From Candidatus Bruticola sp. (GTDB lineage: Bacteria > Vulcanimicrobiota > Xenobia > Xenobiales > Xenobiaceae): a stretch of 64,000 bases of DNA. Under the pieces are notes generated by a model, which saw nothing but the letters and a program-made list of their open reading frames with translations, was not told the DNA's origin and did no database searches. Both the position numbers and the translations under genes were made by a program. Positions 1,069 through 46,654 of the stretch are shown in pieces. The stretch is from contig JBJEGD010000026.1 in assembly GCA_051874735.1 (NCBI GenBank), positions 91,452 to 155,451 on the forward strand. The letters run 5' to 3'. Numbering within the stretch: position 1 is the stretch's first letter; every line of letters begins with the position of its first letter.

Positions 1069-1214
1069 TTTAGCTGATTTTATAACTTTAGTATAAACTA
1101 GTGGTGGGGGACTGCAGGGGCTCTTCGTTTGCATAGCATCGGTGGGTCCCTGTGCTTTTTATGGTTCGGTTGAGTTCGTTCTTTAGCAAATAATTATTTT
1201 TAGAGGTGAACTTT

Positions 1215-29800: not shown

Positions 29801-29979
29801 TGTTTGTTGACGCCGGCAATGCCTGGATCTCCGGCTACAAGTCGAGTGAACTGTATACCGATGCTGGTGTTGGTCTGCGCATAGTATTTCCTAACCTCGG
29901 TTTGGGTGTTATTCGTATCGATTATGCTTTCGGCAAAGATGGATCCCGCTCCAGTATAGGTATAGGTCAGTCATTCTAG
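26887..29979 (+). CDS. bamA: outer membrane protein assembly factor BamA (Omp85) with an about 400-aa low-complexity N-terminal extension
   Basis: GGAGG RBS and a signal peptide. POTRA-like units begin IEVEGNKTV, IAIEGNSVV, VKVEGVTVF and IKLAWTG. The C-terminal barrel has RGY, VFVDAGNAW and a terminal GIGQSF (C-terminal Phe). Confidence 0.9.
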   Translation: MRNALGHVLSAAVLVGSFGASVPAFADSPSGNAAVNTAEPLPAAVNMGFSLEADSAAAPYVHGSQTSSLTSQTDSCEYVQPHIIQLVATDKGDTELVDSAAIASGAANSSCSTSELSTSEKDATVSTSSAVSADESKTIKTKTKSSTSELKKSKARLNKSRAARRKNKVNSTALGKHSSPEKVESAVANSDNGAVAIDSSEPIKSKTEFSAELSDKTDHVQTSSSSEPAVEAKAASSVEQESVPVSTYSASKNNGDNVSSALEENSAAAEQKVAPAADETKSQVADEGTKKAAASISPIFSGTVEAITDSSLRIFGIGANGEPLSLDFIVDANSQMAEGIKIGDSLSVYYEVSESGGFRVTSARYLSGEAPKNVFPGDIPSELLDNNDVTAKDETDTTNEADIPKVVSIEVEGNKTVSSEEILQIISTRIGDPLLEPRIRRDMQAIYDSGYYTDVRLDTRYTSDGVRVIFRVLENPVVDEIAIEGNSVVPSEKLRSLMQLETGKVLNTRTLQNDLQSINKYYNEDLGYTISPSHVTKLDFNSGKLTFTLVDGIVVKEVKVEGVTVFPQDQIASMITLKPGDLFNRNTLRDDTEKISALYDEKQYILDTIKPSVDVETGVVTVSVVEAVLQEIKLAWTGTSATKHRTKDDTVLRNIRTKPGEVMRRDRIQKDLERLNNLGLFKKVEPEVEPGSAPGQAVLVLNIEEQKTGLATVGVGYAGGGSGAVRPGITGAISYSERNLFGEGKQFSINLQRGAQIGAYSISYYDPAINSAQDSIGVSAYYNSVDDLEQQVTGADYGTYAYYDQEVYGATVTYGHPFSDDLRGFVTLRHETINLTMSGKSLYVPVGLGKGDLNAIGLSTLYDTRDDVFSPHKGSYANVALTFAGFGGDYSYNKFVVEGRHYVPLTKRSTLALRGMYGTVGNGAPASEYFYAGGTDTLRGYQDNSMFGNKVVLLNAEYRFPIGNIKMLSGAVFVDAGNAWISGYKSSELYTDAGVGLRIVFPNLGLGVIRIDYAFGKDGSRSSIGIGQSF

Positions 29980-33688: not shown

Positions 33689-34402
33689 ATGGAACAGGGA
33701 CTCATACATACTAGCGCTTGTATTGATGTCTTCGCCTCTCTTGGAGAGGGATGCCGAGTCGGAGCTATGGCTGTTATTGAAAGTGGAGCCCAAATTGGCT
33801 GCGGAGCTGAAATCGGTCCTAAAGTTTATATCGGACGCAACGTTTCTATCGGTGAAAGAGCTGTTATAAAGTGCGGTGCTGTTATTATGGATGGCGTTGT
33901 TGTTGGCAGAGAAGCGGTAGTCGAGTCGGGGGCTGTTTTGGGAATGGATGGCTTTGGATATGTTTTTGACGGACAAAGCCATCGTAAAATTCAGCAAATA
34001 GGCAATGTTGTCATTGGGCAGGGAGCGAAAATTGGCGCTTGTTCCTGTATAGACAGGGCCGCTTCTGCTTCAACGGTCGTTGGCGATCATACTGAAATAG
34101 GTCATATGGTGATGGTCGGTCATAACAGCAAGATTGGCAGCGGGTGTCGCATTGGTGATCAGAGCGGTTTAACTGGTTCCTCTCTGGTCGGTAACGATTG
34201 TATCATCGGCTCTCAGTGTGGTATAGGTGTGCGTGTTGAACTTGGCGATGGCTGTGTGTTGCTAGATCGAGCCACGGCTATGCGCAAATATGAGCCTGGG
34301 CAGGTTCTGGCCGGACATCCAGGACGACCGGTGGCGGAGGTTCGCCGTGCAGAAGCGGCTTTTAATTTGCTGCCTAAACTTTTAAAAGATTATATTGAGT
34401 AG
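33689..34402 (+). CDS. lpxD: UDP-3-O-acylglucosamine N-acyltransferase, short form (LbH plus C-terminal helix only)
   Basis: It aligns without gaps to the E. coli LpxD catalytic region: IDRAASASTVVGDHTEIGHMVMVGHNSKIG...LTGSS versus [30 protein letters not shown]...MAGSL. The His of the HN motif is present. At 237 aa it has no room for the about 100-aa N-terminal domain, because the upstream gene ends at 33688. Confidence 0.75.
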   Translation: MEQGLIHTSACIDVFASLGEGCRVGAMAVIESGAQIGCGAEIGPKVYIGRNVSIGERAVIKCGAVIMDGVVVGREAVVESGAVLGMDGFGYVFDGQSHRKIQQIGNVVIGQGAKIGACSCIDRAASASTVVGDHTEIGHMVMVGHNSKIGSGCRIGDQSGLTGSSLVGNDCIIGSQCGIGVRVELGDGCVLLDRATAMRKYEPGQVLAGHPGRPVAEVRRAEAAFNLLPKLLKDYIE

Positions 34403-34613: not shown

Positions 34614-36458
34614 ATGAGAAAATATAATTTATGGGCCTTAATTTTGGCTTTTGTAGTCTTTTATTCCGCTGCTCTGTCATCTGCCTGGGCTGCTGATGTA
34701 ATGCTGGGAGGCCAGGTTATCTTTCGTATAAATGATGAGGATCAAGCAAAAAAAATATCCCAAAAAATTGAAGCTATGTTGCAGAGGGGGGCTTCTTCGT
34801 CTTCAATTAAAGTCGTACGTAAAGATATTGCTGTAGCCTCGGAGGGGCAAGATAAGCAAGATAAAGATGAAGGTAGCAAGGGAGGGGCTAAAGCGAAAAA
34901 ATCTGTTTATAAAATATTTTGGGGAAGTGAATTAGTCATTGAAGTGAATGACGAAATTGCCAAGCAGAATGCTTCTTCTCCAGAAGCTTTAGCTAATTTA
35001 TGGGCCTCCAATATGCGCAATGTCGTCGATATTGGCCTGTTGAATGTTGATGTTGCTAGAGTCGTTTTACCTATAGAGGCTGATAAGGTTATTTACGCTT
35101 CTGGTTTGGCAACCGGTCCTTTGAGTGCTGAAGAGACTTCAGGTATCGTTGATATTGATATCGATCAGGAAAACGGCCTTATTAAGATAAAAGGGCGCAG
35201 GGTTGGAAAGTCGTCTATCGTTATTAGCAAAGGGGTTGCCTCCGTTTCCGTTTTTGTGCAGGTGAAAGATTGGGCCGGCAAACTTCCTCAGACGGTTAAT
35301 GTTGAAGTAACTGGCAATCCTGCACAGATTGATGACGTTTCCCAGGCGGTTATGCTTTCCATAGCGGCTAATACTTTCGTTCAGCCAGGCTGCAGTGTTT
35401 ATGTTGATGATTCCAACTTTAAACCGATTCCGGTGAGTAAAGGCGACAGTATGCGCTTAAGCGTGCCTGTGGGTATAAATGCTTCGGAAGATTATTTTGC
35501 GCTTCGCGGCAATGTTAATGTTGTAGTTAGCAATATAGAAGCTCCTGTAGTTGAGCAGAATCTGCTTCTAGTCAGCAATCGGCCGGAGCGTGTCAGCACA
35601 GATGGAGTATTAATGAAGTATAACTTCAAGAGACGTGAGCCCAGTCGTCTTATGTTCTCCCATCTTAATGCTTCCGAAAAGAATCGTTATTTGTGGATAA
35701 ATTTAGCTAATTTAAATGACGAACCGATAAAGATTGTTATCAGTCGCACTTCTGCTGGACCTGAGCGCAGCGAAATTTATGTCGGCCAAACGGCTGCCAA
35801 GCGCTTTTTAGAAAATTTGGCCAGTCGTTCCGGCTATATCATTACTCTTCCGCCCAATTCTGCTTTAGAGCTCTGTTCTTATGTGATGCGTCCTGAAGCT
35901 TTGGTAAGTGGATTTATAAATTTCCAAATTTTGGAAGGTACTAGCGCGACCGTTGAAGTGCGCAGTTCATTAAATCCTAATGCTAACGATGGACGTCCTC
36001 TGCCAGAAATAGGGGCCCCTTTTAATCCTTTCAAAATACATCCTCACGGAGTTTTTGCTCAGCCTTATTTTGAAAATGAAGGTGAATTTGTTATAGGTGG
36101 CAGTCCTTTAACTTTTCGTTATGGTGAGAGTCCTTGGCTGATTGATTTTGAAACTGGGCTGCCCAACACTGGCAATTTCGGGGTTTTGTATAAATCTTTG
36201 GTAGAATTAAAAAATCCTACTAAGCGTACAAAAACTGTGGGACTTTACTTTACGCCTTTGTCCGGCCCTGGCGGTGCTAACTTCCTGATAGGCAATTCTG
36301 TTTATCAGGCAGTTTTCCGCAAAAAAGGTGATGAAGTACTTGTAGCTAAAATCGAACTCTCGCCAGAGTCTAGCAGTATAATTGAAATTGTCACTTTACC
36401 TGAGGCGACTTCCTGTTATCCTGCCCAGTATGAATTGCGTGAACTGGACGGGCGCTGA
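34614..36458 (+). CDS. secreted 614-aa protein of unknown function
   Basis: Signal peptide MRKYNLWALILAFVVFYSAALSSAWA. It has its own terminator. No family recognised. Confidence 0.7.
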   Translation: MRKYNLWALILAFVVFYSAALSSAWAADVMLGGQVIFRINDEDQAKKISQKIEAMLQRGASSSSIKVVRKDIAVASEGQDKQDKDEGSKGGAKAKKSVYKIFWGSELVIEVNDEIAKQNASSPEALANLWASNMRNVVDIGLLNVDVARVVLPIEADKVIYASGLATGPLSAEETSGIVDIDIDQENGLIKIKGRRVGKSSIVISKGVASVSVFVQVKDWAGKLPQTVNVEVTGNPAQIDDVSQAVMLSIAANTFVQPGCSVYVDDSNFKPIPVSKGDSMRLSVPVGINASEDYFALRGNVNVVVSNIEAPVVEQNLLLVSNRPERVSTDGVLMKYNFKRREPSRLMFSHLNASEKNRYLWINLANLNDEPIKIVISRTSAGPERSEIYVGQTAAKRFLENLASRSGYIITLPPNSALELCSYVMRPEALVSGFINFQILEGTSATVEVRSSLNPNANDGRPLPEIGAPFNPFKIHPHGVFAQPYFENEGEFVIGGSPLTFRYGESPWLIDFETGLPNTGNFGVLYKSLVELKNPTKRTKTVGLYFTPLSGPGGANFLIGNSVYQAVFRKKGDEVLVAKIELSPESSSIIEIVTLPEATSCYPAQYELRELDGR

Positions 36459-36660: not shown

Positions 36661-37500
36661 ATGTGCAGAGCGCAGCGTACTTTGGCGAAAGAAGTTTCCT
36701 TCGAAGGAGTAGGGATTCATACTGGGAGAGCGAGTCACCTAACTATTAAGCCGGCTCCTGTCGATCACGGTCTCGTTTTTCTTAGTTCTGGAGAGTATAT
36801 CCCTGCTACCTATGAGTACGTTATTTCTACAAAGCGCTCTACAACGATTGGTAAGGGACAGGTCGCGGTAAATACTATCGAGCATTTAATGGCCGCTTTT
36901 GGAGGTCTTTCTGTGGATAATGCTCTTATAGAGATAGAAGGGCCGGAAGTTCCTATTTTAGACGGTTCTGCTTTGCCTTTTTGTCAGGCTATGGAAGAAG
37001 CAGGTATAGTTAATATCAAAGGCAGTGAAGTAGAAGATTATTATCTGAGCGAGCCCATTTTTGCTGCAGAAGGGGACAGTTTAGTTTTGGCTATGCCCGA
37101 TTCCCAATATAATCTTGAAGGAGCTGTCAGCTACAACAGTCCTCAAGTAGGTATTCAGCGATATCGTTACTGCGGATATGACAACTTTGTGACTCATATA
37201 GCTCCTGCTCGTACTTTTGGTTTTTGGTCTGAGGTAAAAACTCTCTTAGAAAACGGATTAGGGCAAGGTGGCGATCTGTCTAATGCTTTAATTTATGATC
37301 GTCCTGGTTTTAATGCTGCAGAAAATCAGCGTTTTGTCAATGAACCGGTGCGTCACAAAATTTTAGATTTAGCTGGTGATATTTGTCTGTTAGGTCGTCC
37401 GCTGTGTGCTTTTGTTTTGGCCGTTCGGGCTGGTCATAAATTGCATGTAGAATTCGTTCGCAAAATCGCTGAGGAGATGAAAAAAAATGCTGAATACTAA
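36661..37500 (+). CDS. lpxC: UDP-3-O-acyl-GlcNAc deacetylase
   Basis: RTLAKEVSFEGVGIHTG, TIEHLMAA, EVPILDGSA and HKILDLAGD motifs. Confidence 0.9.
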   Translation: MCRAQRTLAKEVSFEGVGIHTGRASHLTIKPAPVDHGLVFLSSGEYIPATYEYVISTKRSTTIGKGQVAVNTIEHLMAAFGGLSVDNALIEIEGPEVPILDGSALPFCQAMEEAGIVNIKGSEVEDYYLSEPIFAAEGDSLVLAMPDSQYNLEGAVSYNSPQVGIQRYRYCGYDNFVTHIAPARTFGFWSEVKTLLENGLGQGGDLSNALIYDRPGFNAAENQRFVNEPVRHKILDLAGDICLLGRPLCAFVLAVRAGHKLHVEFVRKIAEEMKKNAEY

Positions 37501-37912
37501 AGATATATTGCACAGGATTAATTACAAAAGTCCTCTTTTTTTTGTTGATATTGTTAACGAGTTAGAGTTTCCTAAAATCTCTGGTTATAAAAATGTGACT
37601 ATGAGCGAGCCCCATTTCGCTGGACATTTCCCAGGCAAACCCATTATGCCTGGAGTACTACAAATGGAAGCTTTGGTACAGATTTGCCGACTTCTCTATA
37701 TAGGGAATGAAGAGGCTCCTATTAAAGTAAAAGAGCTCGATTTAGTTGGAGTTAAAAAATTTAAGTTTAGAACTCCTGTTGTTCCAGGAGATCGCCTCGA
37801 TCTTTATGCTGAAGAAATTGAGCGTAACAACGAAAATATAGTGCTATCTGTTAAAGCTTGCGTTGGAGATAATGTCGCTTGTGAAGGAATACTTTCTTTC
37901 AGTTGGCAATAA
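37487..37912 (+). CDS. fabZ: 3-hydroxyacyl-ACP dehydratase
   Basis: HFPGKPIMPGVLQMEAL motif. It overlaps lpxC by 14 nt. GAGGAG RBS. Confidence 0.9.
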   Translation: MLNTKDILHRINYKSPLFFVDIVNELEFPKISGYKNVTMSEPHFAGHFPGKPIMPGVLQMEALVQICRLLYIGNEEAPIKVKELDLVGVKKFKFRTPVVPGDRLDLYAEEIERNNENIVLSVKACVGDNVACEGILSFSWQ

Positions 37913-38028
37913 AAGGCGAACGCACGACCGTTTGCGGCTAGCTGTAGGAAATTTGCCATATACAGACGAAATTATAAACCGTTTTGTGTTCGCTTTTGCA
38001 TAGAGACAAAAATTGGAGGATAAGCATT

Positions 38029-38967
38029 ATGAAGCCGATTAAAGTTGGCGTGGTCGGCATTGGTAGTATGGGGAAAAACCATGCTCGAGTGTGCGCCGAA
38101 CTACCTCAAATTGAACTTACAGGCATGGTGGATCTCGATGAAGCCAGAGTCGCCCCTTTAGCTCAGCAGTACGGCACACAGTATTATAAAGATTATAAGA
38201 GTCTCTATGGCAAAATCGACGCTGTAGTTATTGTTGCACCTACACCGCTTCACTATCAAATCGCTCAAGATTTTTTGGAACAGGGCGTTCATGTCTTGGT
38301 AGAAAAGCCCATTACTGTAGAGGTAAGCGAGGCTAAACGGTTAGTGACTTCCGCTAAGGAAAAAAATCTTGTTCTGCAGGTAGGTCATTTGGAGCGTTTC
38401 AATCCAGCCGTAATAAAGCTTAAGCAGATGGTGAGCAAACCTGTGTTAATAGAATGCCACCGCCTTTCTGGGCCTACTACTCGCAGTCTCGATGTCGGTA
38501 TTATTTGGGATTTAATGATCCACGATTTTGATATACTTCTCAGTTTATATAAATCTCCAGTAGCCGAAATCCATGCTATGGGGACTTCTATCTATTCTAA
38601 ATTTGAAGATGTAGCTCACGTGCAAATGCGGTTTGAATGTGGGGCTGTAGCCAGTTTGGTAGCTAGTCGCAATTCCGGAGAAAGGAAGCGCAGTCTCAAA
38701 ATTACTGAAGATACCGGACGAGTTTTGTCTCTCGATTTTATTAACCAAACTTTAGTTATTTCTCGTCCTGGCCCCGATGGGCGTCCCCTAGATTTGGAGC
38801 CAGTTCACATCGAGAAAGAGGAACCTCTACGTTTGGAACTCAGCAATTTTGCAGATTGTGTGATTAATCACAAGGAACCTGTTGTATCCGGTGAGGATGG
38901 CAAGCGAGCTTTGGAATTAGCTGTTCACGTTTTGGAGAATATGCAAAAAATTACGCTTTCTAAGTAA
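38029..38967 (+). CDS. Gfo/Idh/MocA-family NAD(P)-dependent oxidoreductase (GnnA-like position)
   Basis: ATG at 38029 follows GGAGG. Rossmann N-terminus IKVGVVGIGSMGKNHA and an EKP motif (LVEKPIT). It lies between fabZ and lpxA. Confidence 0.85.
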   Translation: MKPIKVGVVGIGSMGKNHARVCAELPQIELTGMVDLDEARVAPLAQQYGTQYYKDYKSLYGKIDAVVIVAPTPLHYQIAQDFLEQGVHVLVEKPITVEVSEAKRLVTSAKEKNLVLQVGHLERFNPAVIKLKQMVSKPVLIECHRLSGPTTRSLDVGIIWDLMIHDFDILLSLYKSPVAEIHAMGTSIYSKFEDVAHVQMRFECGAVASLVASRNSGERKRSLKITEDTGRVLSLDFINQTLVISRPGPDGRPLDLEPVHIEKEEPLRLELSNFADCVINHKEPVVSGEDGKRALELAVHVLENMQKITLSK

Positions 38968-39017: not shown

Positions 39018-39827
39018 GTGATTCATTCCAGCGCTATAGTACATCCCGGGGCACGCATCGGTGAGGGAGTAGAAATCGGACCTTTTTCTATTATCGGAGA
39101 AAATGTAGAAATTGGAGACGGAACTAAAATTATGTCTTCTGTCGTCATAGATGGATGGACAACTATAGGCAAAAATAACAAAATTTATCCGGGTGTATCT
39201 ATTGGTCTGGCACCTCAGGATTTCAGTTATAAAGGGCAGCGTTCATTTGTAACTATTGGTGATAATAATGAGTTCCGTGAATATGTGACTATTCATAGGG
39301 CTGCCGATGAAGATGGTATTACTTCTGTGGGTAGCGGCAATCTGCTTATGGCGAATGTACACATCGCTCATAACTGCCATATTGGTAGTCAAATTACTAT
39401 GGCTAATTATGCTGGTTTGGCTGGTCATACTGTAGTAGAAGATCAGGCGGTATTAGGTGGGCTTGTAGGTATCCATCAGCACACCCGCATCGGTCGTTTG
39501 TGTATGGTAGGCGGATGCTCCAAGATAAATAAAGATTTGCCGCCCTTCAGTATTGTCGATGGTAATCCTTGTCGTCTCTTTGGTATGAATTTCCGAGGCA
39601 TGCGGCGCCGTGACATTTCTAAGGAAAGTCGTTTAGCTGTTCATAAAGCTATCAATATTTTGGGCAGTTGTGGACTGACCTTAGACGCCGCTATAGAACG
39701 CATAGACAGTGAGTTGGAGCATACCCCTGAAATTGAACATTTCCTGACTTTCCTGCGCGGTGATTCTCATATGGGAGTTCTCAATAAAGCCGGCAACGTA
39801 GGGGCGAGAGCTCACAGTAACGCTTAA
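39018..39827 (+). CDS. lpxA: acyl-ACP:UDP-GlcNAc O-acyltransferase
   Basis: GTG follows AGAGG. It has an IHSSAIVHPGARIGEGVEIGPFSIIG hexapeptide start, a catalytic-region HIAHNCHIG and a C-terminal helical domain. Confidence 0.9.
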   Translation: MIHSSAIVHPGARIGEGVEIGPFSIIGENVEIGDGTKIMSSVVIDGWTTIGKNNKIYPGVSIGLAPQDFSYKGQRSFVTIGDNNEFREYVTIHRAADEDGITSVGSGNLLMANVHIAHNCHIGSQITMANYAGLAGHTVVEDQAVLGGLVGIHQHTRIGRLCMVGGCSKINKDLPPFSIVDGNPCRLFGMNFRGMRRRDISKESRLAVHKAINILGSCGLTLDAAIERIDSELEHTPEIEHFLTFLRGDSHMGVLNKAGNVGARAHSNA

Positions 39828-39838
39828 TTGGTGCAGCT

Positions 39839-42286
39839 TTGACTGAAAATAGTCAGCAACAATCATCTGCTTATCCTCAGTTGACGGTTGCGATAATCGC
39901 CATAGAGCCTTCTGCCGATCTTCATGGAAGCAATTTGGCTAGGGCTCTTTTGGCGATTAATCCGCATCTAAAACTGGTCGGCGTAGGCGGATCGCATATG
40001 GCCGCGTCGGGAGTCAGTCTGTGGTTAAGGACCACAGACATGGCAGTTATTGGTCCCGGCGGGGCTATTGCTCGTTTGCCTAAATATATATGTTACTATT
40101 TGTACGTGCGCAGGCATTTGCTTAAGGAACATCCTCACCTCAGCATTTTAATAGACTGCCCCGCCGTTAACATGCGTTATGCTGGTCTTTTGACTCGCTA
40201 TGGCTATCATTCTGTTTATTACTTTCCCCCTTCTGCCTGGACAACCAGCGAAGTGCGTCTTAGACAGATTTTTAGCCGCACAGATAGGGTAATTTGTACC
40301 TTCTTGAGCAATGCCGAAAATTATCGCCGTCTGGGTATGGATGTAGATTTCTTCGGCCATCCTCTTATCGATATGCCCGAGTTAGGAATTTCTGCAGAAG
40401 AAGCTAAAAACAAGTTGGGGCTGGTAGGCGAAAATATTTTGGCTTTACTTCCGGGCAGTCGTGCTTCAGAAATAAAGTATCTATTGCCGATTTTTTTAGA
40501 AATAGTTGCTAAGTTGCATCAAGAAATAGAAAATTTGCAGGTACTTGTACCTTGTGCAACTCAGGCGCTTCGCAGGCAAATAGTTGCCTATATGGGGGAT
40601 AGGTTCCCTTATGTGCGTGTTTTAAATGGGCAGTCTCGTTTAGCCCTTTTAGCTTGTCGAGCAGCGTTGATGAGCTCTGGCACAGCTAGCCTGGAAGCTG
40701 CGATATTAGGCGCCCCAATGGTTCTGTCTTATAAACTTTGTCCCTTCGATGCTGTTATAGGTAAGTTCCTGATTTGGAGTGGTTTATTAAAAATTGAGCA
40801 TATCGGGTTGCCCAGTTTGGTCGCTGGACATCGCATTGTTCCAGAGTTTGTTCAAGATGAAGTTTCACCTGAAAATATTATCCCTCATTTGCGCAATTTT
40901 ATGCGAGATACTCCTGAGCGGTGCCAAATAAAACAAGATCTTTTAGATATGAGGAAGTCCATGGGCGCTCCTGGAGTAATTACCAAGATAGCCTCTTCTT
41001 TATATAGTCGCATTGAGAGCAGTGCTGCTGAAAGGATGGCTGAACCTTTCGACATTGTTATAACATCTAATTCTCCTGGAGAGGTGTCCACGTGGGTGCG
41101 ACGCACTGTTGCTCAGTTGGAGGTTAAAAACAAAGGGCAGTTTAGAGTTATAGTAGCGTTAGTTCCATGTCCTTATGCTTCCGGAGCTGAAGCTGAAGTC
41201 GCCGCTTCTCTGCCAGGCGTTTCCATTGTTCTGACGCCTAGTCAGACTGTGCGTTTAATGTGCGGCATGTTCAACGATTTTGAGCTGCGTAAAAAGGGAG
41301 TAGTAGTATTTTTAGGCGGTGATCTTATTCACGCTAAAATTTTGGCTTGGCGTTTAAAATATCGCTCTATAGCCTATGCAGCTAGATACAACAGGCTAAT
41401 CTACTATTTTGATAAAGTCGCTGCTTCAGATATTTCACTGGCCTCTGAATTATTAGAAGCTGGAGTTAATGAAGTTGTTAATATAGGTAATTTAAGTATT
41501 GATGGGGTTATTTCTGAAGTTGATAGGGAAGCAGCTGATAAAGTATCCCGTAGAACTGGCTTGAAGATTGGCATTTTCCCAGGATCGCGTTTTCTGCATA
41601 CTAAGATCGCTCTAGGAGTGTTTTTGCGTGTAGCTGCTCTAATAAAAACGCGTCACCCTGAGGTTGAATTTGTCCTTTCTGTATCGCCTTTTCTTTCCCC
41701 AGCTCGGCTGGAATCGGCACTTTGTAATCCTTTTAGTTTGGGGCTTCCGGTAGCTAAGGGTAAATTGCTCAGTGCTGATCGCATTGCAGTTGAGTGTATG
41801 TATGAAGATGAACAGGCTGCAGGACGCAGTTTTGAAGTTGAAGTTTTGTGGGGCCATCCTTATCAAGCTATTGCAGAAATAGATATGGCACTTACCATTC
41901 CGGGAACGAATACTGGAGAGTTGGGGTGTTGCGGCAAACCTATGGTAGTAGGACTTTCTGCTGATGCTTCCCTGCCCAGAGGAGGTTTGGGCGGCTTATT
42001 TGAAAGGATGCCAGTTTTATCAAAACTTAAGAGTTATTTGCGCTTGCGTTCTTATGCGCGTCACGGTTTCGCTGCGATCCCTAACCGTATTGCTTCTAGA
42101 GCTATCGTTCCTGAAGTTTTAGTAAAAAAAGATACGTCTGTGCTGGCCCAGCCTATTTTAGAGTGGATTGAAACTCCTGAGAAGTACGCCCGTGTTTCCC
42201 AAGATTTAAAAGACACTATGAGAACGACAGAGGGAGCGGGCAAGCGCATGGCTGAGTTGATCCTGGGTTTGGTTGATTCTAAATAA
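39839..42286 (+). CDS. lpxB: lipid-A-disaccharide synthase fused to a second LpxB-related GT-B module
   Basis: TTG start. Residues about 15-395 look like LpxB (IEPSADLHG..., YYFPPSAW, FFGHPLID, LLPGSRASE, GTASLEAAILGAPMV). Residues about 400-815 form a second module (ITSNSPGEVS, IFPGSRFLH, PGTNTGELGCCGKPMVV). Confidence 0.8.
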   Translation: MTENSQQQSSAYPQLTVAIIAIEPSADLHGSNLARALLAINPHLKLVGVGGSHMAASGVSLWLRTTDMAVIGPGGAIARLPKYICYYLYVRRHLLKEHPHLSILIDCPAVNMRYAGLLTRYGYHSVYYFPPSAWTTSEVRLRQIFSRTDRVICTFLSNAENYRRLGMDVDFFGHPLIDMPELGISAEEAKNKLGLVGENILALLPGSRASEIKYLLPIFLEIVAKLHQEIENLQVLVPCATQALRRQIVAYMGDRFPYVRVLNGQSRLALLACRAALMSSGTASLEAAILGAPMVLSYKLCPFDAVIGKFLIWSGLLKIEHIGLPSLVAGHRIVPEFVQDEVSPENIIPHLRNFMRDTPERCQIKQDLLDMRKSMGAPGVITKIASSLYSRIESSAAERMAEPFDIVITSNSPGEVSTWVRRTVAQLEVKNKGQFRVIVALVPCPYASGAEAEVAASLPGVSIVLTPSQTVRLMCGMFNDFELRKKGVVVFLGGDLIHAKILAWRLKYRSIAYAARYNRLIYYFDKVAASDISLASELLEAGVNEVVNIGNLSIDGVISEVDREAADKVSRRTGLKIGIFPGSRFLHTKIALGVFLRVAALIKTRHPEVEFVLSVSPFLSPARLESALCNPFSLGLPVAKGKLLSADRIAVECMYEDEQAAGRSFEVEVLWGHPYQAIAEIDMALTIPGTNTGELGCCGKPMVVGLSADASLPRGGLGGLFERMPVLSKLKSYLRLRSYARHGFAAIPNRIASRAIVPEVLVKKDTSVLAQPILEWIETPEKYARVSQDLKDTMRTTEGAGKRMAELILGLVDSK

Positions 42287-42287
42287 T

Positions 42288-42941
42288 ATGAAAATTCCTA
42301 ATGAAAATTGCCAAAATATTGCTACTCCTTTTATTTTCAAGTGGCGAGGCTTGATTATGGCAGTAGTGACGGCTATCATACTGGCTGCTGCCAAGCCAAC
42401 TTTAGTTACCTGCTGCTGGGGAATTGGCTTTGTACTTTTAGGAGAGCTGTTGCGTTCATGGGCTTTGGGCTGGACTGGAGAACATACACGTAGTCAGGAA
42501 TTAATGGCGTCTTTTTTAGTTACTGGCGGTCCTTATAAATACATACGCAATCCACTGTACTTAGGCAATATTTTAAACGGATTTGGGGTTATGGTTGCTG
42601 CTTCTGGAGCTATGTCGTATTTGGGAACGGCTGCTTTGTGGGCTTTTGGTCTTCTATCTCTTTATATGGTTTATGCTTCATGTATAATCGCTGAAGAAGC
42701 TTTCTTGGCTATGCGTTTTGGTGATCTCTTCTTCCGCTACAGAGCAGTTACGCCGACCATTGTACCGCGTTGGGGAGATTATCTCGATTTTATAAGCAGT
42801 TTTTTCAATTTCTCTTCCTGTACAGATGTTCAATATGAAGGGAGAGGCTTCTTCTCTTGGCAATCTTTAAAATTTGAATATAGTACTTGGGGATGGATAA
42901 TTGCTGTTTGGTCTTGTTTATTTATAAAAGCTTTCATGTAA
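42288..42941 (+). CDS. ICMT/Ste14-like membrane methyltransferase family protein
   Basis: The ATG at 42288 begins immediately after the lpxB stop. The protein is multi-TM and has GPYKYIRNPLYLGNIL, the family signature. Confidence 0.7.
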   Translation: MKIPNENCQNIATPFIFKWRGLIMAVVTAIILAAAKPTLVTCCWGIGFVLLGELLRSWALGWTGEHTRSQELMASFLVTGGPYKYIRNPLYLGNILNGFGVMVAASGAMSYLGTAALWAFGLLSLYMVYASCIIAEEAFLAMRFGDLFFRYRAVTPTIVPRWGDYLDFISSFFNFSSCTDVQYEGRGFFSWQSLKFEYSTWGWIIAVWSCLFIKAFM

Positions 42942-43026: not shown

Positions 43027-44202
43027 TTAAGGCCGCATGGAAATCTCGGTTAAAATTTGAGCCATGCGGGCTGCTCCTCCGGGAGGGCCTAGTCTCTCTT
43101 GGCCGATAGATCCGCGCCGTTGCCGATCAGCTTTGTCTTGCATTAGGCGACATAGAGTTTCGATTATATCGGGATCGTAATCTTCACAAACAATAAGAGC
43201 CTCACCGAGCAGCCCCTTTTGTCTGGCCCTATACCACTTTAAACGAGTCTCTCCGCCTGGTTCATAAGCAACAACAGGAATACCGTGACCAGCCGCTTGT
43301 TCATGTGCTGTGCCCGCCAATCCTAGAGCGACTTGACTGTATTTTAGTACATCAGCTAGATGGCCTTTGATAAGAAAGAACTGAACTTGATACTCCGCCT
43401 TGTTGTCTGCAAGTTTAAGTTCGCTCCAACCCGGATAAGGTGCTTCGTTCATAACAAAACCCGGACAGGCCTGTGCTAACTTTGAGGTATCAATAGATGG
43501 AGCTACGGCAATAAAGGCACAAATTTTCTTATTTAAGCGTTGAGACAGCTGGCAACTTATTTCTAAAAGGCGAGGCAGTACCCTGTAAGTAGCTTGTCTG
43601 CTGCCGGGAAAGAGAGCTAGGCCTATTTCTTTGCTGCTGTCTAGACTGAAGTCCAGTTCTTGAGGAACCAAACCATCCATCATAGCATTACCTACCCAGA
43701 TAGCTTTAACTCCTTTTTGACGCAGACTGGCAGCTGTAGGTTCATCTCGGACAATAGAGCGAACTTTGAAAGTTCTCAGAACCCAAGCTTCTAGAGCTGA
43801 GTAAGGATGATGATAGTCAGATTTAGCCGTGCCAATGAAGGTTATTGGGCGTATACCAGATAGGGCAGCTAGAATAACTGGCCAAAGATCGCCGACAGCG
43901 GCAATGTGATTGAAACGGTGACGATTTGAGCGCAGCCAAAACAGCTGTTTTAAAGTTAAATAGGCTAAGCCGCCGCCAAGATCTTTCCAAAAATTACGCC
44001 AATCTTCTTGAATAAGGCCGCCGCTGGGCATGTCGCTGACAGGGCCGTTTATGGGAGCTATTCCTTTGTACGCTGAGCCTTCTCCAACCAAAGGTAAAGC
44101 TTCTATATCGATTGATTTAGGCAGCTCCTTAATTATCTGGGCAGCTATGGAATCTTCACCGGCTCCGTTAGATACAAGTAAAAGGCGTTGAGGGGCGGGC
44201 AT
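43027..44202 (-). CDS. LpxB-related GT-B glycosyltransferase (lipid-A-disaccharide synthase-related type)
   Basis: ATG at 44202 follows AAGGAGAG. It has LLLVSNGAGEDSIAAQII, LFPGSRQAT and GLAGTAHEQAAGHGIPVV, the same architecture as the second module of the lpxB fusion. Confidence 0.7.
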   Translation of the reverse strand: MPAPQRLLLVSNGAGEDSIAAQIIKELPKSIDIEALPLVGEGSAYKGIAPINGPVSDMPSGGLIQEDWRNFWKDLGGGLAYLTLKQLFWLRSNRHRFNHIAAVGDLWPVILAALSGIRPITFIGTAKSDYHHPYSALEAWVLRTFKVRSIVRDEPTAASLRQKGVKAIWVGNAMMDGLVPQELDFSLDSSKEIGLALFPGSRQATYRVLPRLLEISCQLSQRLNKKICAFIAVAPSIDTSKLAQACPGFVMNEAPYPGWSELKLADNKAEYQVQFFLIKGHLADVLKYSQVALGLAGTAHEQAAGHGIPVVAYEPGGETRLKWYRARQKGLLGEALIVCEDYDPDIIETLCRLMQDKADRQRRGSIGQERLGPPGGAARMAQILTEISMRP

Positions 44203-44234
44203 AATCTCTCCTTTTAAGTTTTTTAGCAGCAAAT

Positions 44235-45080
44235 TTAAGCTAAACTTATCAACTTACAGTGACTTAGCTGTGGATTATCCATATTGTATTCAATTTCATT
44301 TATATGTTTGGCGAATGCACCAGTTTGTACAATAAAAGAACCATTAACTTGACAAGGTGAGTCCAGTTGGGTATGGGTATGGCCTCCTAAAATCCAGGTG
44401 CCTGGCGGCGTATTAACCGCCAATTGCTGATCTCGGTCAAAACCTATGTGACTGATGATAACTAAATTAGTTCTTAGACCTAATTTAGCTGAGCAGCGAT
44501 CAGCTATCTGAGGCAAAGTTGTCTCTGCTTTGAAAAAACGAAAACCAAATATTTTTTCCCATATGGCATTATGAGGGTATTGCACCGGCATGGCTGATAA
44601 AATCAGCAAGGCACAATTTGAGCTCCAAGAGCTGTTAAAAAGCGCCAGACCGGGAATCCAGCGCTCTGAGGATAGTTCTTGCCAGGCCGAGGAGTTACGC
44701 CAGTTAGCAGAACTGCAGTCTATTATTGGTATATCTTGAATTTGCTCGACAAATTCGCGCTGAGTTAAATGACCACTAAGACGTATATCAGACAAATTAG
44801 TACAGATAAGCGGAAAAGAACGCTGTCTAGCTCTTTTGTCTAGAATACGCCTTTGATAATTGAACTCTCGATTGCCCATAGCCATGGCTGCGCAGCCGAC
44901 AGAACTCATTTTATCTAAGTTTGGTTCAAAGTTTTTCCATACTGTGTTAGAACCGATTAGAGCGTCGCCGCTGTCAAAATAAAGGGCTTGACCTGCGGCT
45001 ATAGAGGCCTGGGCCTGGCTTTTGAGCCAAGCCAAAGCCTCGCTGCGTCCGTGCATATCGTTGGTATGATAAATAATCAT
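44235..45080 (-). CDS. UshA-type calcineurin-like metallophosphoesterase (N-domain only, 281 aa)
   Basis: Motifs YHTNDMHGR, DSGDALIGS, GNREF, ISHIG and GGHTH. Arg replaces the usual His of the GNHE motif. Confidence 0.8.
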   Translation of the reverse strand: MIIYHTNDMHGRSEALAWLKSQAQASIAAGQALYFDSGDALIGSNTVWKNFEPNLDKMSSVGCAAMAMGNREFNYQRRILDKRARQRSFPLICTNLSDIRLSGHLTQREFVEQIQDIPIIDCSSANWRNSSAWQELSSERWIPGLALFNSSWSSNCALLILSAMPVQYPHNAIWEKIFGFRFFKAETTLPQIADRCSAKLGLRTNLVIISHIGFDRDQQLAVNTPPGTWILGGHTHTQLDSPCQVNGSFIVQTGAFAKHINEIEYNMDNPQLSHCKLISLA

Positions 45081-45105: not shown

Positions 45106-45678
45106 TCAATTTTTGCTTCGCTGGGAAACTTTTGAGCTTCTTTCCTGAGCTACTTCGGTATAGACTTGACGGTAGCGATCTATTCCTATATATCTACAAA
45201 TTACTATACCGTAACCTATTATCCAACCGACTCCAGCTAGAGAAGCACCACCCAAACATACCCCTAATATTAAACCAATGCATCCGAAAATTAAACTGTT
45301 TAGCATAGGCTTAGAATCTAGTGATATTGAGTAACCTAAAGAAAGCCCAATAATAGCTCCCACTAGTCCGTAGTAACTACCTTTGCCTATATCTGCAGCC
45401 GTGGTTGCAATAGCCAAACTCGCTTTAGCTGCCTGCACAAGTGAATATTCAGACTGGCCAGCATCGATAATGGAGTTCGCTCCCCACAAGAATCCCATCA
45501 TCAGTCCCATGCCGGCGAAGCAGAGGCAGTACAAAGTCCTCTGTTGTTTGGTAAGAAAAGTTACAGACTGTTCTGTATTACTAGTCTTATTCGCGGTAGA
45601 CGATGAATTTTTTTTATCTTGCTTAGCGTTTTTCTTTTCTTTTTTTTTGCTGTCTTTGAGAGACGCCGGATCACTCAT
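45106..45678 (-). CDS. membrane protein with a Lys-rich N-terminus and Gly-zipper TM segments
   Basis: It has KKKEKKNAKQDKKNSS followed by about 4 Gly/Ala-rich hydrophobic segments. It overlaps the upstream gene by 8 nt. Confidence 0.6.
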   Translation of the reverse strand: MSDPASLKDSKKKEKKNAKQDKKNSSSTANKTSNTEQSVTFLTKQQRTLYCLCFAGMGLMMGFLWGANSIIDAGQSEYSLVQAAKASLAIATTAADIGKGSYYGLVGAIIGLSLGYSISLDSKPMLNSLIFGCIGLILGVCLGGASLAGVGWIIGYGIVICRYIGIDRYRQVYTEVAQERSSKVSQRSKN

Positions 45679-46654
45679 GTTTTTTATCTTTGTCCTTCAG
45701 AGATAATTTTGCCAATTTTTTTATTTGCTCCCATTTTTTTAAAGGAAGCTGACGCATCGCAATTTGGCGCATCGATACTTTATGTGCTTGAACGGGATCG
45801 CCGGACCACACTGACTGACCGGCTGGAATATCTTTATCCACGCCCGATCTAGCTGCTACTGTGGCAAAATCGCCGATATGACGCCCTTCTTTTACCAAGC
45901 ATTGGCCGGCGGCTATGGATAATTTTCCAATATAAGCTCTCTCCTGCAGACAGTTTTGAGAAATAATTATAGCCATAGGCTCTATAATAGATTCTTTGTT
46001 AATGCAGGCTAAATTGTCTATGCGCACTCCTTGATGAATAAGTGCTTTCCTGCCTATAAAGCAGCGAGCACCTATTTCAATATCACTTCCCAAAGAAGCT
46101 TCATCTTCGATAATGGTTAGCGGCCCTACTAAACTTGAACCTTCCAATTTTACTTTTTTCCCTAAAGAAACTCCGGGCATCAATTTAGTGTCAGCTCCTA
46201 CAAAGCTGTCGCTATCTATGCTGACATGAGCTTGAATTTGGCAGTTATCGCCAATGGTTACTCCATCTGCTATAACGGCAAAGGGGCCTATATAGGCTGT
46301 AGGAGATATGTTGGCAGAATCGCTTATGCAAGCACTTTCGTGTATCCCCGGCTTAAAGCGAAAAGGAGGATAATACAAATCGAGGAGCTTAGCATAGGCT
46401 ACTCGAGAATTTTTCACTAATATAGCCGGAATATTTGTTTGTATTTTTTCGGGTATAATTACTGCAGCAAAGCCGAGGTGCACTGCTTCTTGTAGTGAAC
46501 TTTCGTCTTCAGCGAAAGTAATTGCCGAGTTTAGATTGTGACTTAAAGCTGCGTCCATACCTGTGACTTCTTTTATAACCAGAGAAGCACTTTCCGGTAT
46601 GTTCAGACGACCTTCAAGATAATCGGCCAGCTCTTTTAAGTTCTTTACCACCAT
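45671..46654 (-). CDS. LpxD-like acyltransferase paralogue (full-length architecture, catalytic His position is Lys)
   Basis: The N-terminus is like the LpxD uridine-binding domain (LKELADYLEGRL...ITFAEDESSLQEA...AVIIPE). It has LbH repeats. The region IDNLACINKESII aligns to E. coli IDNQCQIAHNVVI. Confidence 0.75.
   Translation of the reverse strand: MVVKNLKELADYLEGRLNIPESASLVIKEVTGMDAALSHNLNSAITFAEDESSLQEAVHLGFAAVIIPEKIQTNIPAILVKNSRVAYAKLLDLYYPPFRFKPGIHESACISDSANISPTAYIGPFAVIADGVTIGDNCQIQAHVSIDSDSFVGADTKLMPGVSLGKKVKLEGSSLVGPLTIIEDEASLGSDIEIGARCFIGRKALIHQGVRIDNLACINKESIIEPMAIIISQNCLQERAYIGKLSIAAGQCLVKEGRHIGDFATVAARSGVDKDIPAGQSVWSGDPVQAHKVSMRQIAMRQLPLKKWEQIKKLAKLSLKDKDKKHE

What the first reader, a model, noticed from the sequence alone, without database searches (positions are those of the whole stretch)
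38029..38967. Gfo/Idh/MocA oxidoreductase wedged between fabZ and lpxA: possible GnnA, implying GlcN3N-based lipid A
Seen: a Rossmann-type oxidoreductase (GVVGIGSMGKNHA, EKP) is embedded in the lpxC-fabZ-X-lpxA-lpxB run with short spacers. Established: in Acidithiobacillus ferrooxidans and Leptospira, GnnA (an oxidoreductase of this family encoded next to lpxA) and the aminotransferase GnnB convert UDP-GlcNAc to UDP-GlcNAc3N. This yields lipid A with four amide-linked acyl chains. Inference: this organism may do the same. No GnnB-like aminotransferase is in the window.
Basis: partly seen in the sequence, partly recalled or inferred. Interest (0 to 1): 0.5.

Follow-up and report, generated by a model that had tools for sequence, protein, structure and literature searches.

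The report
GnnA-type dehydrogenase in lipid A operon
The gene between fabZ and lpxA in this gut-associated Eremiobacterota genome (Candidatus Bruticola) is a well-conserved relative of GnnA, the enzyme that starts conversion of UDP-GlcNAc into the 3-amino sugar used for all-amide-linked lipid A. This is a sensible but unsurprising new member of a known pathway, and its partner aminotransferase has not yet been located in this genome.

Summary
Window 38029..38967 (+) is a 312-aa Gfo/Idh/MocA gene with a strong ribosome-binding site, inside an lpxC-fabZ-X-lpxA-lpxB run.

Evidence that it is a GnnA orthologue:
- Its best solved relative by sequence and by predicted fold is A. ferrooxidans GnnA (7bvj/7bvk). 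Sequence score is 167 bits against 83 for the next entry. Fold match is TM 0.90-0.93 against about 0.8.
- Its best NCBIfam model is the archaeal UDP-GlcNAc 3-dehydrogenase, which is also the best model for authentic GnnA.
- It keeps 51 of 52 clade-signature positions.
- It falls in one clade with GnnA and with many homologues that sit next to a DegT aminotransferase and lpx genes.
- It is under purifying selection as strong as lpxA (dN/dS 0.022).

The source is a Candidatus Bruticola MAG (Vulcanimicrobiota/Eremiobacterota, class Xenobia). In syntenic clusters of this phylum, the fabZ-lpxA slot holds DegT+Gfo in 3 genomes, DegT alone in 4 or more, or Gfo alone (this clade).

No DegT gene lies in the 64-kb window, and I could not show one elsewhere in this genome. 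GnnA identity is therefore well supported. GlcN3N-based lipid A remains a reasonable inference. I rate it a new member of a known kind, of moderate-to-low interest.

The parts
38029..38967 (+). gnnA-like gene: 312-aa Gfo/Idh/MocA protein, predicted NAD-dependent UDP-GlcNAc 3''-dehydrogenase
   Evidence: ORF and RBS. Pfam. Best PDB hit 7bvj/7bvk GnnA at 167 bits. Foldseek TM 0.90-0.93 to GnnA. NF040723 at 275 bits. 51 of 52 clade-signature residues. dN/dS 0.022.
38015..38019 (+). GGAGG ribosome-binding site, 9 nt upstream of the ATG
   Evidence: Read directly from the sequence.
36661..37500 (+). lpxC (UDP-3-O-acyl-GlcNAc deacetylase)
   Evidence: TIGR00325 at 225 bits, above its cut-off; PF03331.
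37487..37912 (+). fabZ (3-hydroxyacyl-ACP dehydratase)
   Evidence: NF000582 at 113.7 bits, at its cut-off; PF07977.
39018..39827 (+). lpxA, the acyltransferase that would use UDP-GlcNAc3N and/or UDP-GlcNAc
   Evidence: NF003657 at 333 bits and TIGR01852 at 309 bits, both above cut-off. Best PDB hit is E. coli LpxA at 227 bits; Leptospira LpxA scores 182 bits.
39839..42286 (+). lpxB, 815 aa: a LpxB domain (residues 15-383) fused to a second, divergent LpxB-like domain
   Evidence: TIGR00215 at 249 bits. The C-terminal half has a weak PF02684 match. The two halves are separate genes in L005, L094 and L098.
42273..42941 (+). ICMT/PEMT-family membrane methyltransferase overlapping the end of lpxB; a possible lipid A modifier
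   Evidence: PF04191 and PF04140. The best NCBIfam model is Leptospira LmtA, but weakly (42.7 bits against a cut-off of 325). In L086 the domain is fused to a LpxB-like protein.
33689..34402 (+). Short lpxD (237 aa) lacking the N-terminal uridine-binding domain
   Evidence: NF002060 at 207 bits, aligned to profile positions 103-332 only. There is no PF04613 match.
34614..36458 (+). Conserved 614-aa protein of unknown function between lpxD and lpxC
   Evidence: No Pfam or NCBIfam match. A homologue occupies the same position in all Eremiobacterota-type loci.
43027..44232 (-). LpxB-related protein (TIGR03492 family)
   Evidence: TIGR03492 at 274 bits, above its cut-off.
44235..45080 (-). Metallophosphoesterase paired with the LpxB-related gene; candidate UDP-2,3-diacylglucosamine hydrolase analogue (inference)
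   Evidence: Weak UshA/SoxB-type matches. The homologue is called PF00149 Metallophos and keeps the same pairing in L085, L086, L094, L097 and L098.
45671..46654 (-). Second LpxD-like gene (327 aa) that retains the N-terminal half of LpxD
   Evidence: NF002060 at 164 bits (below its cut-off), aligned to profile positions 5-178.

Best explanation
The gene encodes an orthologue of GnnA, an NAD-dependent Gfo/Idh/MocA dehydrogenase that oxidises the 3''-hydroxyl of UDP-GlcNAc to a ketone.

Proposed pathway:
1. GnnA makes UDP-3-keto-GlcNAc.
2. A PLP-dependent DegT-family aminotransferase (GnnB), encoded outside this window, converts it to UDP-GlcNAc3N.
3. The flanking LpxA, LpxC, LpxD and LpxB enzymes turn that sugar nucleotide into lipid A whose backbone contains 2,3-diamino-2,3-dideoxyglucose, with amide-linked primary acyl chains.

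The gene is probably co-transcribed with lpxC-fabZ-lpxA-lpxB, so that the precursor is supplied together with the acyltransferases.

Shown: family membership, closest relationship to characterised GnnA, conserved linkage to lpx genes and, in sister genomes, to a DegT gene, and strong purifying selection.

Inferred: the catalytic activity, co-transcription, the existence of GnnB in this genome, and the lipid A composition.
For: Similarity to characterised GnnA:
- Sequence: the best PDB hit is 7bvj/7bvk at E 7e-48 and 167 bits over residues 4-301. The next entry scores 83 bits. 7bvj is A. ferrooxidans GnnA (description).
- Fold: the AF2 model has pLDDT 92.4. Its five best Foldseek matches are all GnnA chains, at E about 1e-34, TM 0.90-0.93 and rmsd 1.6-2.1 A. 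The next match has E 2e-26 and TM 0.81/0.76.
- Family models: the best NCBIfam model is the archaeal UDP-GlcNAc 3-dehydrogenase NF040723 (275 bits), with IolG next at 136 bits. Authentic GnnA shows the same ranking, at 163 and 100 bits.
- Tree: in an NJ tree the protein sits with Eremiobacterota and Armatimonadota homologues, including DegT-adjacent L085. That group is sister to the clade holding GnnA. Paralogues lie far outside.
- Signature residues: 51 of the 52 positions that are at least 95% conserved in 84 clade members are kept. These include the EKP Lys93 and the D161-x3-H165 motif.

Genomic context:
- Of 76 non-Bruticola homologue loci, 21 have a DegT gene immediately downstream of the homologue. 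At least 30 show lpxA-lpxI-homologue, often followed by lpxB.
- In syntenic Eremiobacterota-type clusters, the same fabZ-lpxA slot holds DegT+Gfo in L085, L094 and L097 (Ca. Xenobiia bacterium LiM19).

Selection: between two Bruticola MAGs, dN/dS is 0.022 for this gene (122 nucleotide differences, 7 amino-acid differences), against 0.021 for lpxA.
Against: - No DegT/GnnB gene lies in the 64-kb window or within 10 kb in the other Gfo-only relatives.
- Two large protein searches seeded with Eremiobacterota slot DegTs listed no protein named Candidatus Bruticola among the best 120. The lowest listed hits were about 50-52% identical to the query.
- None of the 30 clusters I opened contained such a protein.
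- The score on NF040723 is below that model's equivalog cut-off of 450 bits. The model is built for Archaea.
- LpxA is closer to E. coli LpxA than to the UDP-GlcNAc3N-selective Leptospira enzyme, although this is not diagnostic.
- Identity to characterised GnnA is only about 35%.
- No biochemical or lipid A data exist for this phylum in the library I could search.
Confidence: 0.7

Rival explanations
1. The protein is a UDP-GlcNAc (or UDP-GlcNAcA) 3-dehydrogenase whose product feeds a different glycan rather than lipid A. Candidates are a di-N-acetylated sugar for an O-antigen, capsule or S-layer glycan, as with WbpB/WlbA in Pseudomonas and Bordetella or the archaeal MMP0352-type enzyme.
For: The best NCBIfam model is the archaeal UDP-GlcNAc 3-dehydrogenase, which serves glycan synthesis (the role of that enzyme is from my own knowledge). 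The same chemistry serves several pathways. The window also carries sugar-nucleotide genes, such as the NTP-transferase/PGM fusion at 1206-4445.
Against: The gene is embedded in lpxC-fabZ-X-lpxA-lpxB with 116- and 50-nt spacers. Homologues are linked to lpxA, lpxI and lpxB across many phyla. Nothing nearby encodes the acetyltransferase, 6-dehydrogenase or epimerase of the WbpA/B/D/E/I pathway. A solved WlbA-type entry, 3q2k (identification from memory), scores only 36 bits against 167 for GnnA.
Confidence: 0.1
2. The Gfo-only lineage (Bruticola and its 61-63% relatives) has lost GnnB. The conserved dehydrogenase then does something else with a 3-keto sugar nucleotide, or pairs with an aminotransferase outside the DegT family.
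For: DegT is absent from the slot and from 10 kb on either side in all six Gfo-only genomes. No Bruticola-named DegT appeared in the searches. Strong purifying selection shows that the enzyme is used.
Against: The mirror-image arrangement, DegT alone in the slot, is at least as common in the phylum. Separation of the two genes is therefore routine, and neither gene makes sense alone. My searches could only see the best 120 hits of a very large family, so absence of evidence is weak. No use for UDP-3-keto-GlcNAc as an end product is known.
Confidence: 0.12
3. The protein is a generic Gfo/Idh/MocA sugar or inositol dehydrogenase that sits in the lipid A cluster by chance.
For: The deposited annotation is only 'Gfo/Idh/MocA family oxidoreductase'. 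The IolG model gives a sub-threshold hit of 136 bits against a cut-off of 355.
Against: The gap to GnnA is large in sequence and in fold. The position is conserved in the lipid A cluster from 98% down to about 40% identity and across phyla. The clade signature is retained.
Confidence: 0.03

Closest known systems
GnnA of Acidithiobacillus ferrooxidans (UDP-N-acetylglucosamine 3-dehydrogenase; PDB 7bvj/7bvk; Sweet et al. 2004 and Manissorn et al. 2020, cited in PMC8036547 and PMC9636410)
   Same: It has the same fold and length, and GnnA is the best sequence and structure match. The EKP and D-x3-H motifs and most clade-signature residues are shared. Both are genomically linked to lipid A genes. 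In several relatives an adjacent DegT (GnnB-type) gene is present.
   Different: Identity is only about 35%. The gene lies between fabZ and lpxA, whereas the proteobacterial, Geobacter, Acidobacteriota and other lpx-linked loci I fetched place it downstream of lpxA (lpxA-gnnA-degT-lpxB or lpxA-lpxI-gnnA-lpxB). No adjacent aminotransferase is present. The host is a gut-associated member of Vulcanimicrobiota/Eremiobacterota, for which I found no lipid A chemistry.
Archaeal UDP-N-acetylglucosamine 3-dehydrogenase (NCBIfam NF040723)
   Same: It is the best-scoring curated family model, aligned end to end (protein residues 4-305 against profile positions 1-301 of 302). The predicted chemistry is the same.
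   Different: The score of 275 bits is below the equivalog cut-off of 450. The archaeal enzymes serve glycan rather than lipid A synthesis (own knowledge). The context here is the lpx operon.
WbpB/WlbA (UDP-GlcNAcA 3-dehydrogenases of the di-N-acetyl-mannosaminuronic acid pathway)
   Same: Same superfamily, and oxidation at C3'' of a UDP-2-acetamido sugar followed by a DegT-type transamination (own knowledge).
   Different: The relationship is much more distant: about 36 bits to 3q2k, which I recall as B. pertussis WlbA. The substrate is the uronic acid. These enzymes recycle NADH with 2-oxoglutarate. None of the accompanying Wbp genes is present here.
Campylobacter jejuni GnnA/GnnB (Cj0504c/Cj0505c)
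   Same: The same two-enzyme route to GlcN3N in lipid A. Inactivation raises TLR4 activation and sensitivity to antimicrobial peptides (PMC8036547). This is a plausible functional parallel for a gut organism.
   Different: I did not compare the sequences directly. The genes are not in the lpx operon there (own knowledge).

Membership tests
GnnA (UDP-GlcNAc 3-dehydrogenase of the GlcN3N lipid A pathway) | Two-domain Gfo/Idh/MocA fold with an N-terminal Rossmann NAD-binding motif and the EKP motif | tested here: met
   PF01408 at E 4e-31, plus the C-terminal domain models. GVVGIGSMG and VEKPIT are present in the sequence. The AF2 model has pLDDT 92.4.
GnnA (UDP-GlcNAc 3-dehydrogenase of the GlcN3N lipid A pathway) | Closer to characterised GnnA than to any other characterised Gfo/Idh/MocA enzyme | tested here: met
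   phmmer gives 167 bits to 7bvj against 83 bits for the next entry. The Foldseek top five are all GnnA chains, TM 0.90-0.93. The NJ tree places it in the GnnA clade, away from paralogues. Its NCBIfam ranking matches that of authentic GnnA.
GnnA (UDP-GlcNAc 3-dehydrogenase of the GlcN3N lipid A pathway) | Retention of clade-conserved (putative catalytic and substrate-binding) residues | tested here: met
   51 of 52 positions that are at least 95% conserved in 84 clade members are kept, including K93, R123, D161, H165 and R214. The one difference is I for V at position 158. I could not retrieve the residue roles from the GnnA structure paper.
GnnA (UDP-GlcNAc 3-dehydrogenase of the GlcN3N lipid A pathway) | Genomic association with lipid A biosynthesis genes | tested here: met
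   lpxC-fabZ-X-lpxA-lpxB in the window. Homologues lie next to lpxA, lpxI or lpxB in most fetched loci.
GnnA (UDP-GlcNAc 3-dehydrogenase of the GlcN3N lipid A pathway) | A partner GnnB (DegT-family aminotransferase) in the same genome | tested here: inconclusive
   None in the window. None named Bruticola in two top-120 lists or in 30 opened clusters. DegT is present in the same slot in L085, L094 and L097. The rest of the MAG could not be read with these tools.
GnnA (UDP-GlcNAc 3-dehydrogenase of the GlcN3N lipid A pathway) | NAD-dependent oxidation of UDP-GlcNAc at C3'' | not testable with these tools
   Requires an enzyme assay.
GnnA (UDP-GlcNAc 3-dehydrogenase of the GlcN3N lipid A pathway) | The organism's lipid A contains 2,3-diamino-2,3-dideoxyglucose | not testable with these tools
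   The organism is an uncultured MAG. I found no lipid A chemistry for this phylum in the paper library.
Archaeal UDP-GlcNAc 3-dehydrogenase (NF040723 equivalog) | Score at or above the curated cut-off of 450 bits | tested here: not met
   275 bits. Authentic bacterial GnnA also fails this cut-off, at 163 bits.
Inositol 2-dehydrogenase IolG (TIGR04380) | Score at or above the curated cut-off of 355 bits | tested here: not met
   136 bits.
WbpB/WlbA UDP-GlcNAcA 3-dehydrogenase | Close similarity to solved WlbA/WbpB and co-location with wbpA/D/E/I-type genes | tested here: not met
   3q2k (WlbA by my recollection) scores only 36 bits. No such neighbours appear in the Pfam scans of the window.

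The most novel reading that the evidence does not exclude
Bruticola and its 61-63% relatives, the Gfo-only clade of Eremiobacterota, lack a canonical GnnB. Even so, they keep this dehydrogenase in the lipid A operon under constraint as strong as lpxA. If that is right, the 3-keto sugar nucleotide is handled by a non-DegT aminotransferase or feeds an undescribed lipid A backbone modification. A milder version is that this gut commensal of the Terrabacteria makes a Leptospira-like lipid A, with a GlcN3N backbone and a methylated phosphate. This would use the ICMT/LmtA-like gene that overlaps lpxB.
Probability: 0.1. Interest if true: 0.6.

Novelty: new member of a known kind. Interest (0 to 1): 0.33.

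Why it matters
Lipid A built on GlcN3N carries amide- instead of ester-linked primary acyl chains. In Campylobacter this lowers TLR4 activation and raises resistance to cationic peptides (PMC8036547). Predicting this chemistry for Xenobia, a gut-associated and uncultured branch of Eremiobacterota, would refine expectations about how these commensals are sensed by their hosts.

It would also give a specific function to a gene that public annotation calls only 'Gfo/Idh/MocA family oxidoreductase'.

The survey further shows that GnnA-type genes embedded in lpx clusters are widespread. They occur in Acidobacteriota, Aminicenantes, Desulfobacterota, Nitrospirota, Methylococcaceae, Geobacter, Verrucomicrobiota, Armatimonadota and Eremiobacterota. 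GlcN3N lipid A may therefore be commoner than the handful of chemically characterised cases suggests. None of this overturns current understanding.

Tried and rejected
1. Locating GnnB in the Bruticola genome failed.
- Pfam scans of all window ORFs of 150 aa or more, and tblastn with DegT queries, found nothing.
- Two of the three allowed large protein searches were seeded with Eremiobacterota slot DegTs. They returned no Bruticola-named hit.
- Three cluster look-ups covering 30 clusters also returned none. They did reveal the Xenobiia LiM19 DegT.
- I tried to extend beyond the window ends. One edge protein was not on record. The other lay on a 6-kb Logan contig with no DegT.

2. LpxA selectivity could not be read from sequence. 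The window LpxA is nearer E. coli LpxA (227 bits) than Leptospira LpxA (182 bits). I judged this uninformative. As far as I recall, selectivity in Leptospira LpxA rests on backbone geometry, and E. coli and A. ferrooxidans LpxA accept UDP-GlcNAc3N. I could not retrieve Robins et al. 2009 or Sweet et al. 2004.

3. The regiochemistry of the slot DegT could not be settled from PDB similarity. The top hits are perosamine synthetases, with QdtB and WbpE close behind.

4. I rejected the idea that the gene is a decaying relic left after gnnB was lost, because dN/dS is 0.022.

5. Promoter and terminator scans were no better than shuffled sequence. They were used only to note that no terminator-like site lies in the two spacers.

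Full report
**What is there**

Window 38029..38967 (+) is a clean 312-aa ORF. It starts at an ATG that lies 9 nt after a GGAGG motif (38015-38019).

Pfam finds the Gfo/Idh/MocA N-terminal Rossmann domain (E 4e-31) and the C-terminal domains.

The neighbours on the same strand were identified with NCBIfam and Pfam:
- lpxC, 36661-37500
- fabZ, 37487-37912, overlapping lpxC by 14 nt
- the Gfo gene, after a 116-nt spacer
- lpxA, 39018-39827, after a 50-nt spacer
- lpxB, 39839-42286, after an 11-nt spacer

Upstream lie bamA, four Skp/OmpH-like genes, a short lpxD and a conserved 614-aa gene of unknown function. No terminator-like site falls in the two spacers around the gene.

**Source organism**

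The identical protein is deposited from a MAG named Candidatus Bruticola sp.. This genus belongs to the phylum Vulcanimicrobiota (Eremiobacterota), class Xenobia. Identical copies occur in four Logan assemblies. A second Bruticola MAG (L008) is 98% identical in this protein.

**Is it GnnA?**

- Sequence. Against all PDB sequences the best hit is 7bvj/7bvk, at E 7e-48 and 167 bits over residues 4-301. The next entry scores 83 bits. Foldseek's description and two papers identify 7bvj as UDP-GlcNAc 3-dehydrogenase GnnA of A. ferrooxidans.
- Fold. An AlphaFold2 model built from 15 homologues has mean pLDDT 92.4. Its five best PDB matches are all GnnA chains, with E about 1e-34, TM 0.90-0.93 and rmsd 1.6-2.1 A. 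The next match has E 2e-26 and TM about 0.8.
- Curated families. The best NCBIfam model is the archaeal UDP-GlcNAc 3-dehydrogenase NF040723. It scores 275 bits end to end, which is below its cut-off of 450. IolG is next at 136 bits. As a control, authentic GnnA gives the same ranking, at 163 and 100 bits. So do homologues from Methylomicrobium, a Leptospiraceae MAG and an Eremiobacterota MAG.
- Tree. An NJ tree of 84 clade members with two paralogues as outgroup puts the window protein in an Eremiobacterota/Armatimonadota group. That group is sister to the group holding GnnA. The paralogues sit on a long branch outside. The tree has no bootstrap support values.
- Conserved residues. 52 positions are at least 95% conserved in the clade. 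The window protein has 51 of them, including K93 of the EKP motif and D161-x3-H165. These are the usual catalytic motifs of the superfamily, by my own knowledge.
- Identity to GnnA is about 35%.

**Context elsewhere**

One scan of 185,579 species genomes found at least 592 relatives, and I kept the best 80 loci.

- 21 of the 76 loci outside Bruticola carry a DegT-family aminotransferase immediately downstream of the homologue. A typical order is lpxA-gnnA-degT-lpxB, seen in Methylococcaceae, Geobacter and Nitrospirota.
- At least 30 loci show fabZ-lpxA-lpxI-gnnA, often followed by lpxB. These are from Acidobacteriota, Aminicenantes, Desulfobacterota and Verrucomicrobiota.

The clade as a whole is therefore tied both to lipid A genes and to a GnnB-type partner.

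**The slot in Eremiobacterota**

The whole cluster is syntenic across the phylum and its neighbours: bamA, skp genes, lpxD, the unknown ~600-aa gene, lpxC, fabZ, the slot, lpxA. What sits between fabZ and lpxA varies.

| Slot content | Loci |
|---|---|
| DegT followed by Gfo | L085; L094 (labelled Chloroflexi); L097 (Candidatus Xenobiia bacterium LiM19, the class of Bruticola) |
| DegT alone | L087-L089; L090-L092; L095; L096 |
| Gfo alone | the window; L008; L005-L007; L098; Armatimonadota L086 |

Neither enzyme is useful without the other, so the mirror-image single-gene arrangements argue that the missing partner is simply encoded elsewhere. The Gfo-only state is shared by Bruticola and all its nearest relatives (61-63% identity). 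The gene has thus been kept for a long time.

Between the two Bruticola MAGs it has 122 nucleotide differences but only 7 amino-acid differences. That gives dN/dS 0.022, compared with 0.021 for lpxA and 0.036 for lpxC. It is not a relic.

**What I could not show**

GnnB in this genome remains undemonstrated.
- No DegT gene or remnant is in the 64-kb window.
- Two searches of the 5.8-billion-protein collection, seeded with slot DegTs, listed no Bruticola-named protein among the best 120. The lowest listed hits were about 50-52% identical to the query.
- None of the 30 clusters I opened contained one.

The DegT family is very large at about 50-55% identity. Bruticola's other cluster proteins are only 50-55% identical to those of the seed genomes. 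A genuine orthologue could therefore lie just below what I could see. This test is inconclusive rather than negative.

LpxA similarity gives no verdict either. The window LpxA scores 227 bits to E. coli LpxA and 182 bits to Leptospira LpxA. As I recall the literature, which I could not retrieve, substrate selectivity is not encoded in a simple residue signature.

**Mechanism proposed**

1. GnnA oxidises UDP-GlcNAc at C3'' using NAD+.
2. A GnnB encoded elsewhere transaminates the ketone to give UDP-GlcNAc3N.
3. LpxA N-acylates position 3.
4. LpxC, LpxD and LpxB continue the pathway as usual.

The product would be lipid A with GlcN3N in one or both backbone positions. The chemistry and pathway are established for A. 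ferrooxidans and C. jejuni (PMC8036547, PMC3342949). Applying them here is inference from orthology, synteny and selection.

I put 0.85 on the enzyme being a UDP-GlcNAc 3-dehydrogenase. I put about 0.7 on the full statement, including the lipid A destination.

**Rivals**

- The same chemistry feeding another glycan (0.1). The operon context argues against this.
- True loss of GnnB, with a new role or a new partner for the enzyme (0.12). This is not excluded.
- An unrelated sugar dehydrogenase (0.03). The GnnA-specific similarity and the conserved linkage contradict this.

**Novelty and verdict**

This is a new member of a known kind: a GnnA orthologue in a phylum where lipid A has not been studied. 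Its position in the lpx operon, between fabZ and lpxA, appeared only in the Eremiobacterota-type and Armatimonadota-type loci among those I fetched. It is currently annotated only generically.

A specialist would find it plausible and unsurprising. Its value lies in predicting GlcN3N lipid A for gut Xenobia, and in showing how widespread lpx-linked gnnA genes are. Interest is about 0.33.

Noticed in passing
window 42273-42941 (+): An ICMT/PEMT-family membrane methyltransferase overlaps the end of lpxB by 14 nt. Its best NCBIfam model is Leptospira LmtA, the lipid A 1-phosphate methyltransferase, but only weakly (42.7 bits against a cut-off of 325). In Armatimonadota L086 the PEMT domain is fused to a LpxB-like protein. 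It follows the second LpxB-like gene in L094 and L098. It may be a lipid A modification gene.
   Followed up: partly
window 39839-42286 (+) and 43027-44232 (-): There are three LpxB-like modules. The 815-aa lpxB product is a bona fide LpxB domain fused to a second, divergent LpxB-like domain. The two halves are separate genes in L005, L094 and L098. A TIGR03492 'LpxB-related' gene lies on the opposite strand.
   Followed up: partly
window 33689-34402 (+) and 45671-46654 (-): The operon lpxD is short (237 aa) and lacks the N-terminal uridine-binding domain. It aligns only to profile positions 103-332. A second LpxD-like gene of 327 aa on the minus strand matches the N-terminal half, profile positions 5-178. 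Relatives with DegT in the slot have a single full-length lpxD with PF04613.
   Followed up: partly
window 44235-45080 (-), with 43027-44232 (-): A metallophosphoesterase is always paired with the LpxB-related gene in Eremiobacterota-type clusters (L085, L086, L094, L097, L098). No LpxH or LpxI was found in the window. It may be the UDP-2,3-diacylglucosamine hydrolase analogue.
   Followed up: no
window 34614-36458 (+): A 614-aa protein with a hydrophobic N-terminus has no Pfam or NCBIfam match. A homologue of 561-684 aa sits between lpxD and lpxC in every Eremiobacterota-type cluster I examined.
   Followed up: no
L085, L094, L097; L087-L092, L095, L096; window, L005-L008, L086, L098: The fabZ-lpxA slot of this phylum's outer-membrane cluster holds DegT+Gfo, DegT alone or Gfo alone in different lineages. 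This is repeated splitting of a two-gene pathway.
   Followed up: partly
L005, L006 (CAYRFU01, CAZVVF01) and L094 (JAMCWD01): MAGs labelled 'uncultured Burkholderiales' and 'Chloroflexi bacterium' carry the Eremiobacterota-type cluster in full synteny with the window. Their taxonomic labels are probably wrong.
   Followed up: no
L078 8816-10972: In a Leptospiraceae MAG the GnnA homologue follows hrcA, dnaK and dnaJ, and has neither lpxA nor DegT within the locus.
   Followed up: partly
window 26887-29979 (+): BamA is 1030 aa long. It has a roughly 400-residue Ser/Ala/Glu-rich N-terminal extension ahead of the POTRA domains. Relatives range from 709 to 957 aa.
   Followed up: no
window 1206-4445 (+): A 1079-aa fusion combines a sugar-1-phosphate nucleotidyltransferase, a left-handed beta-helix and a phosphoglucomutase/phosphomannomutase. 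It also has a weak DUF5752 tail.
   Followed up: no
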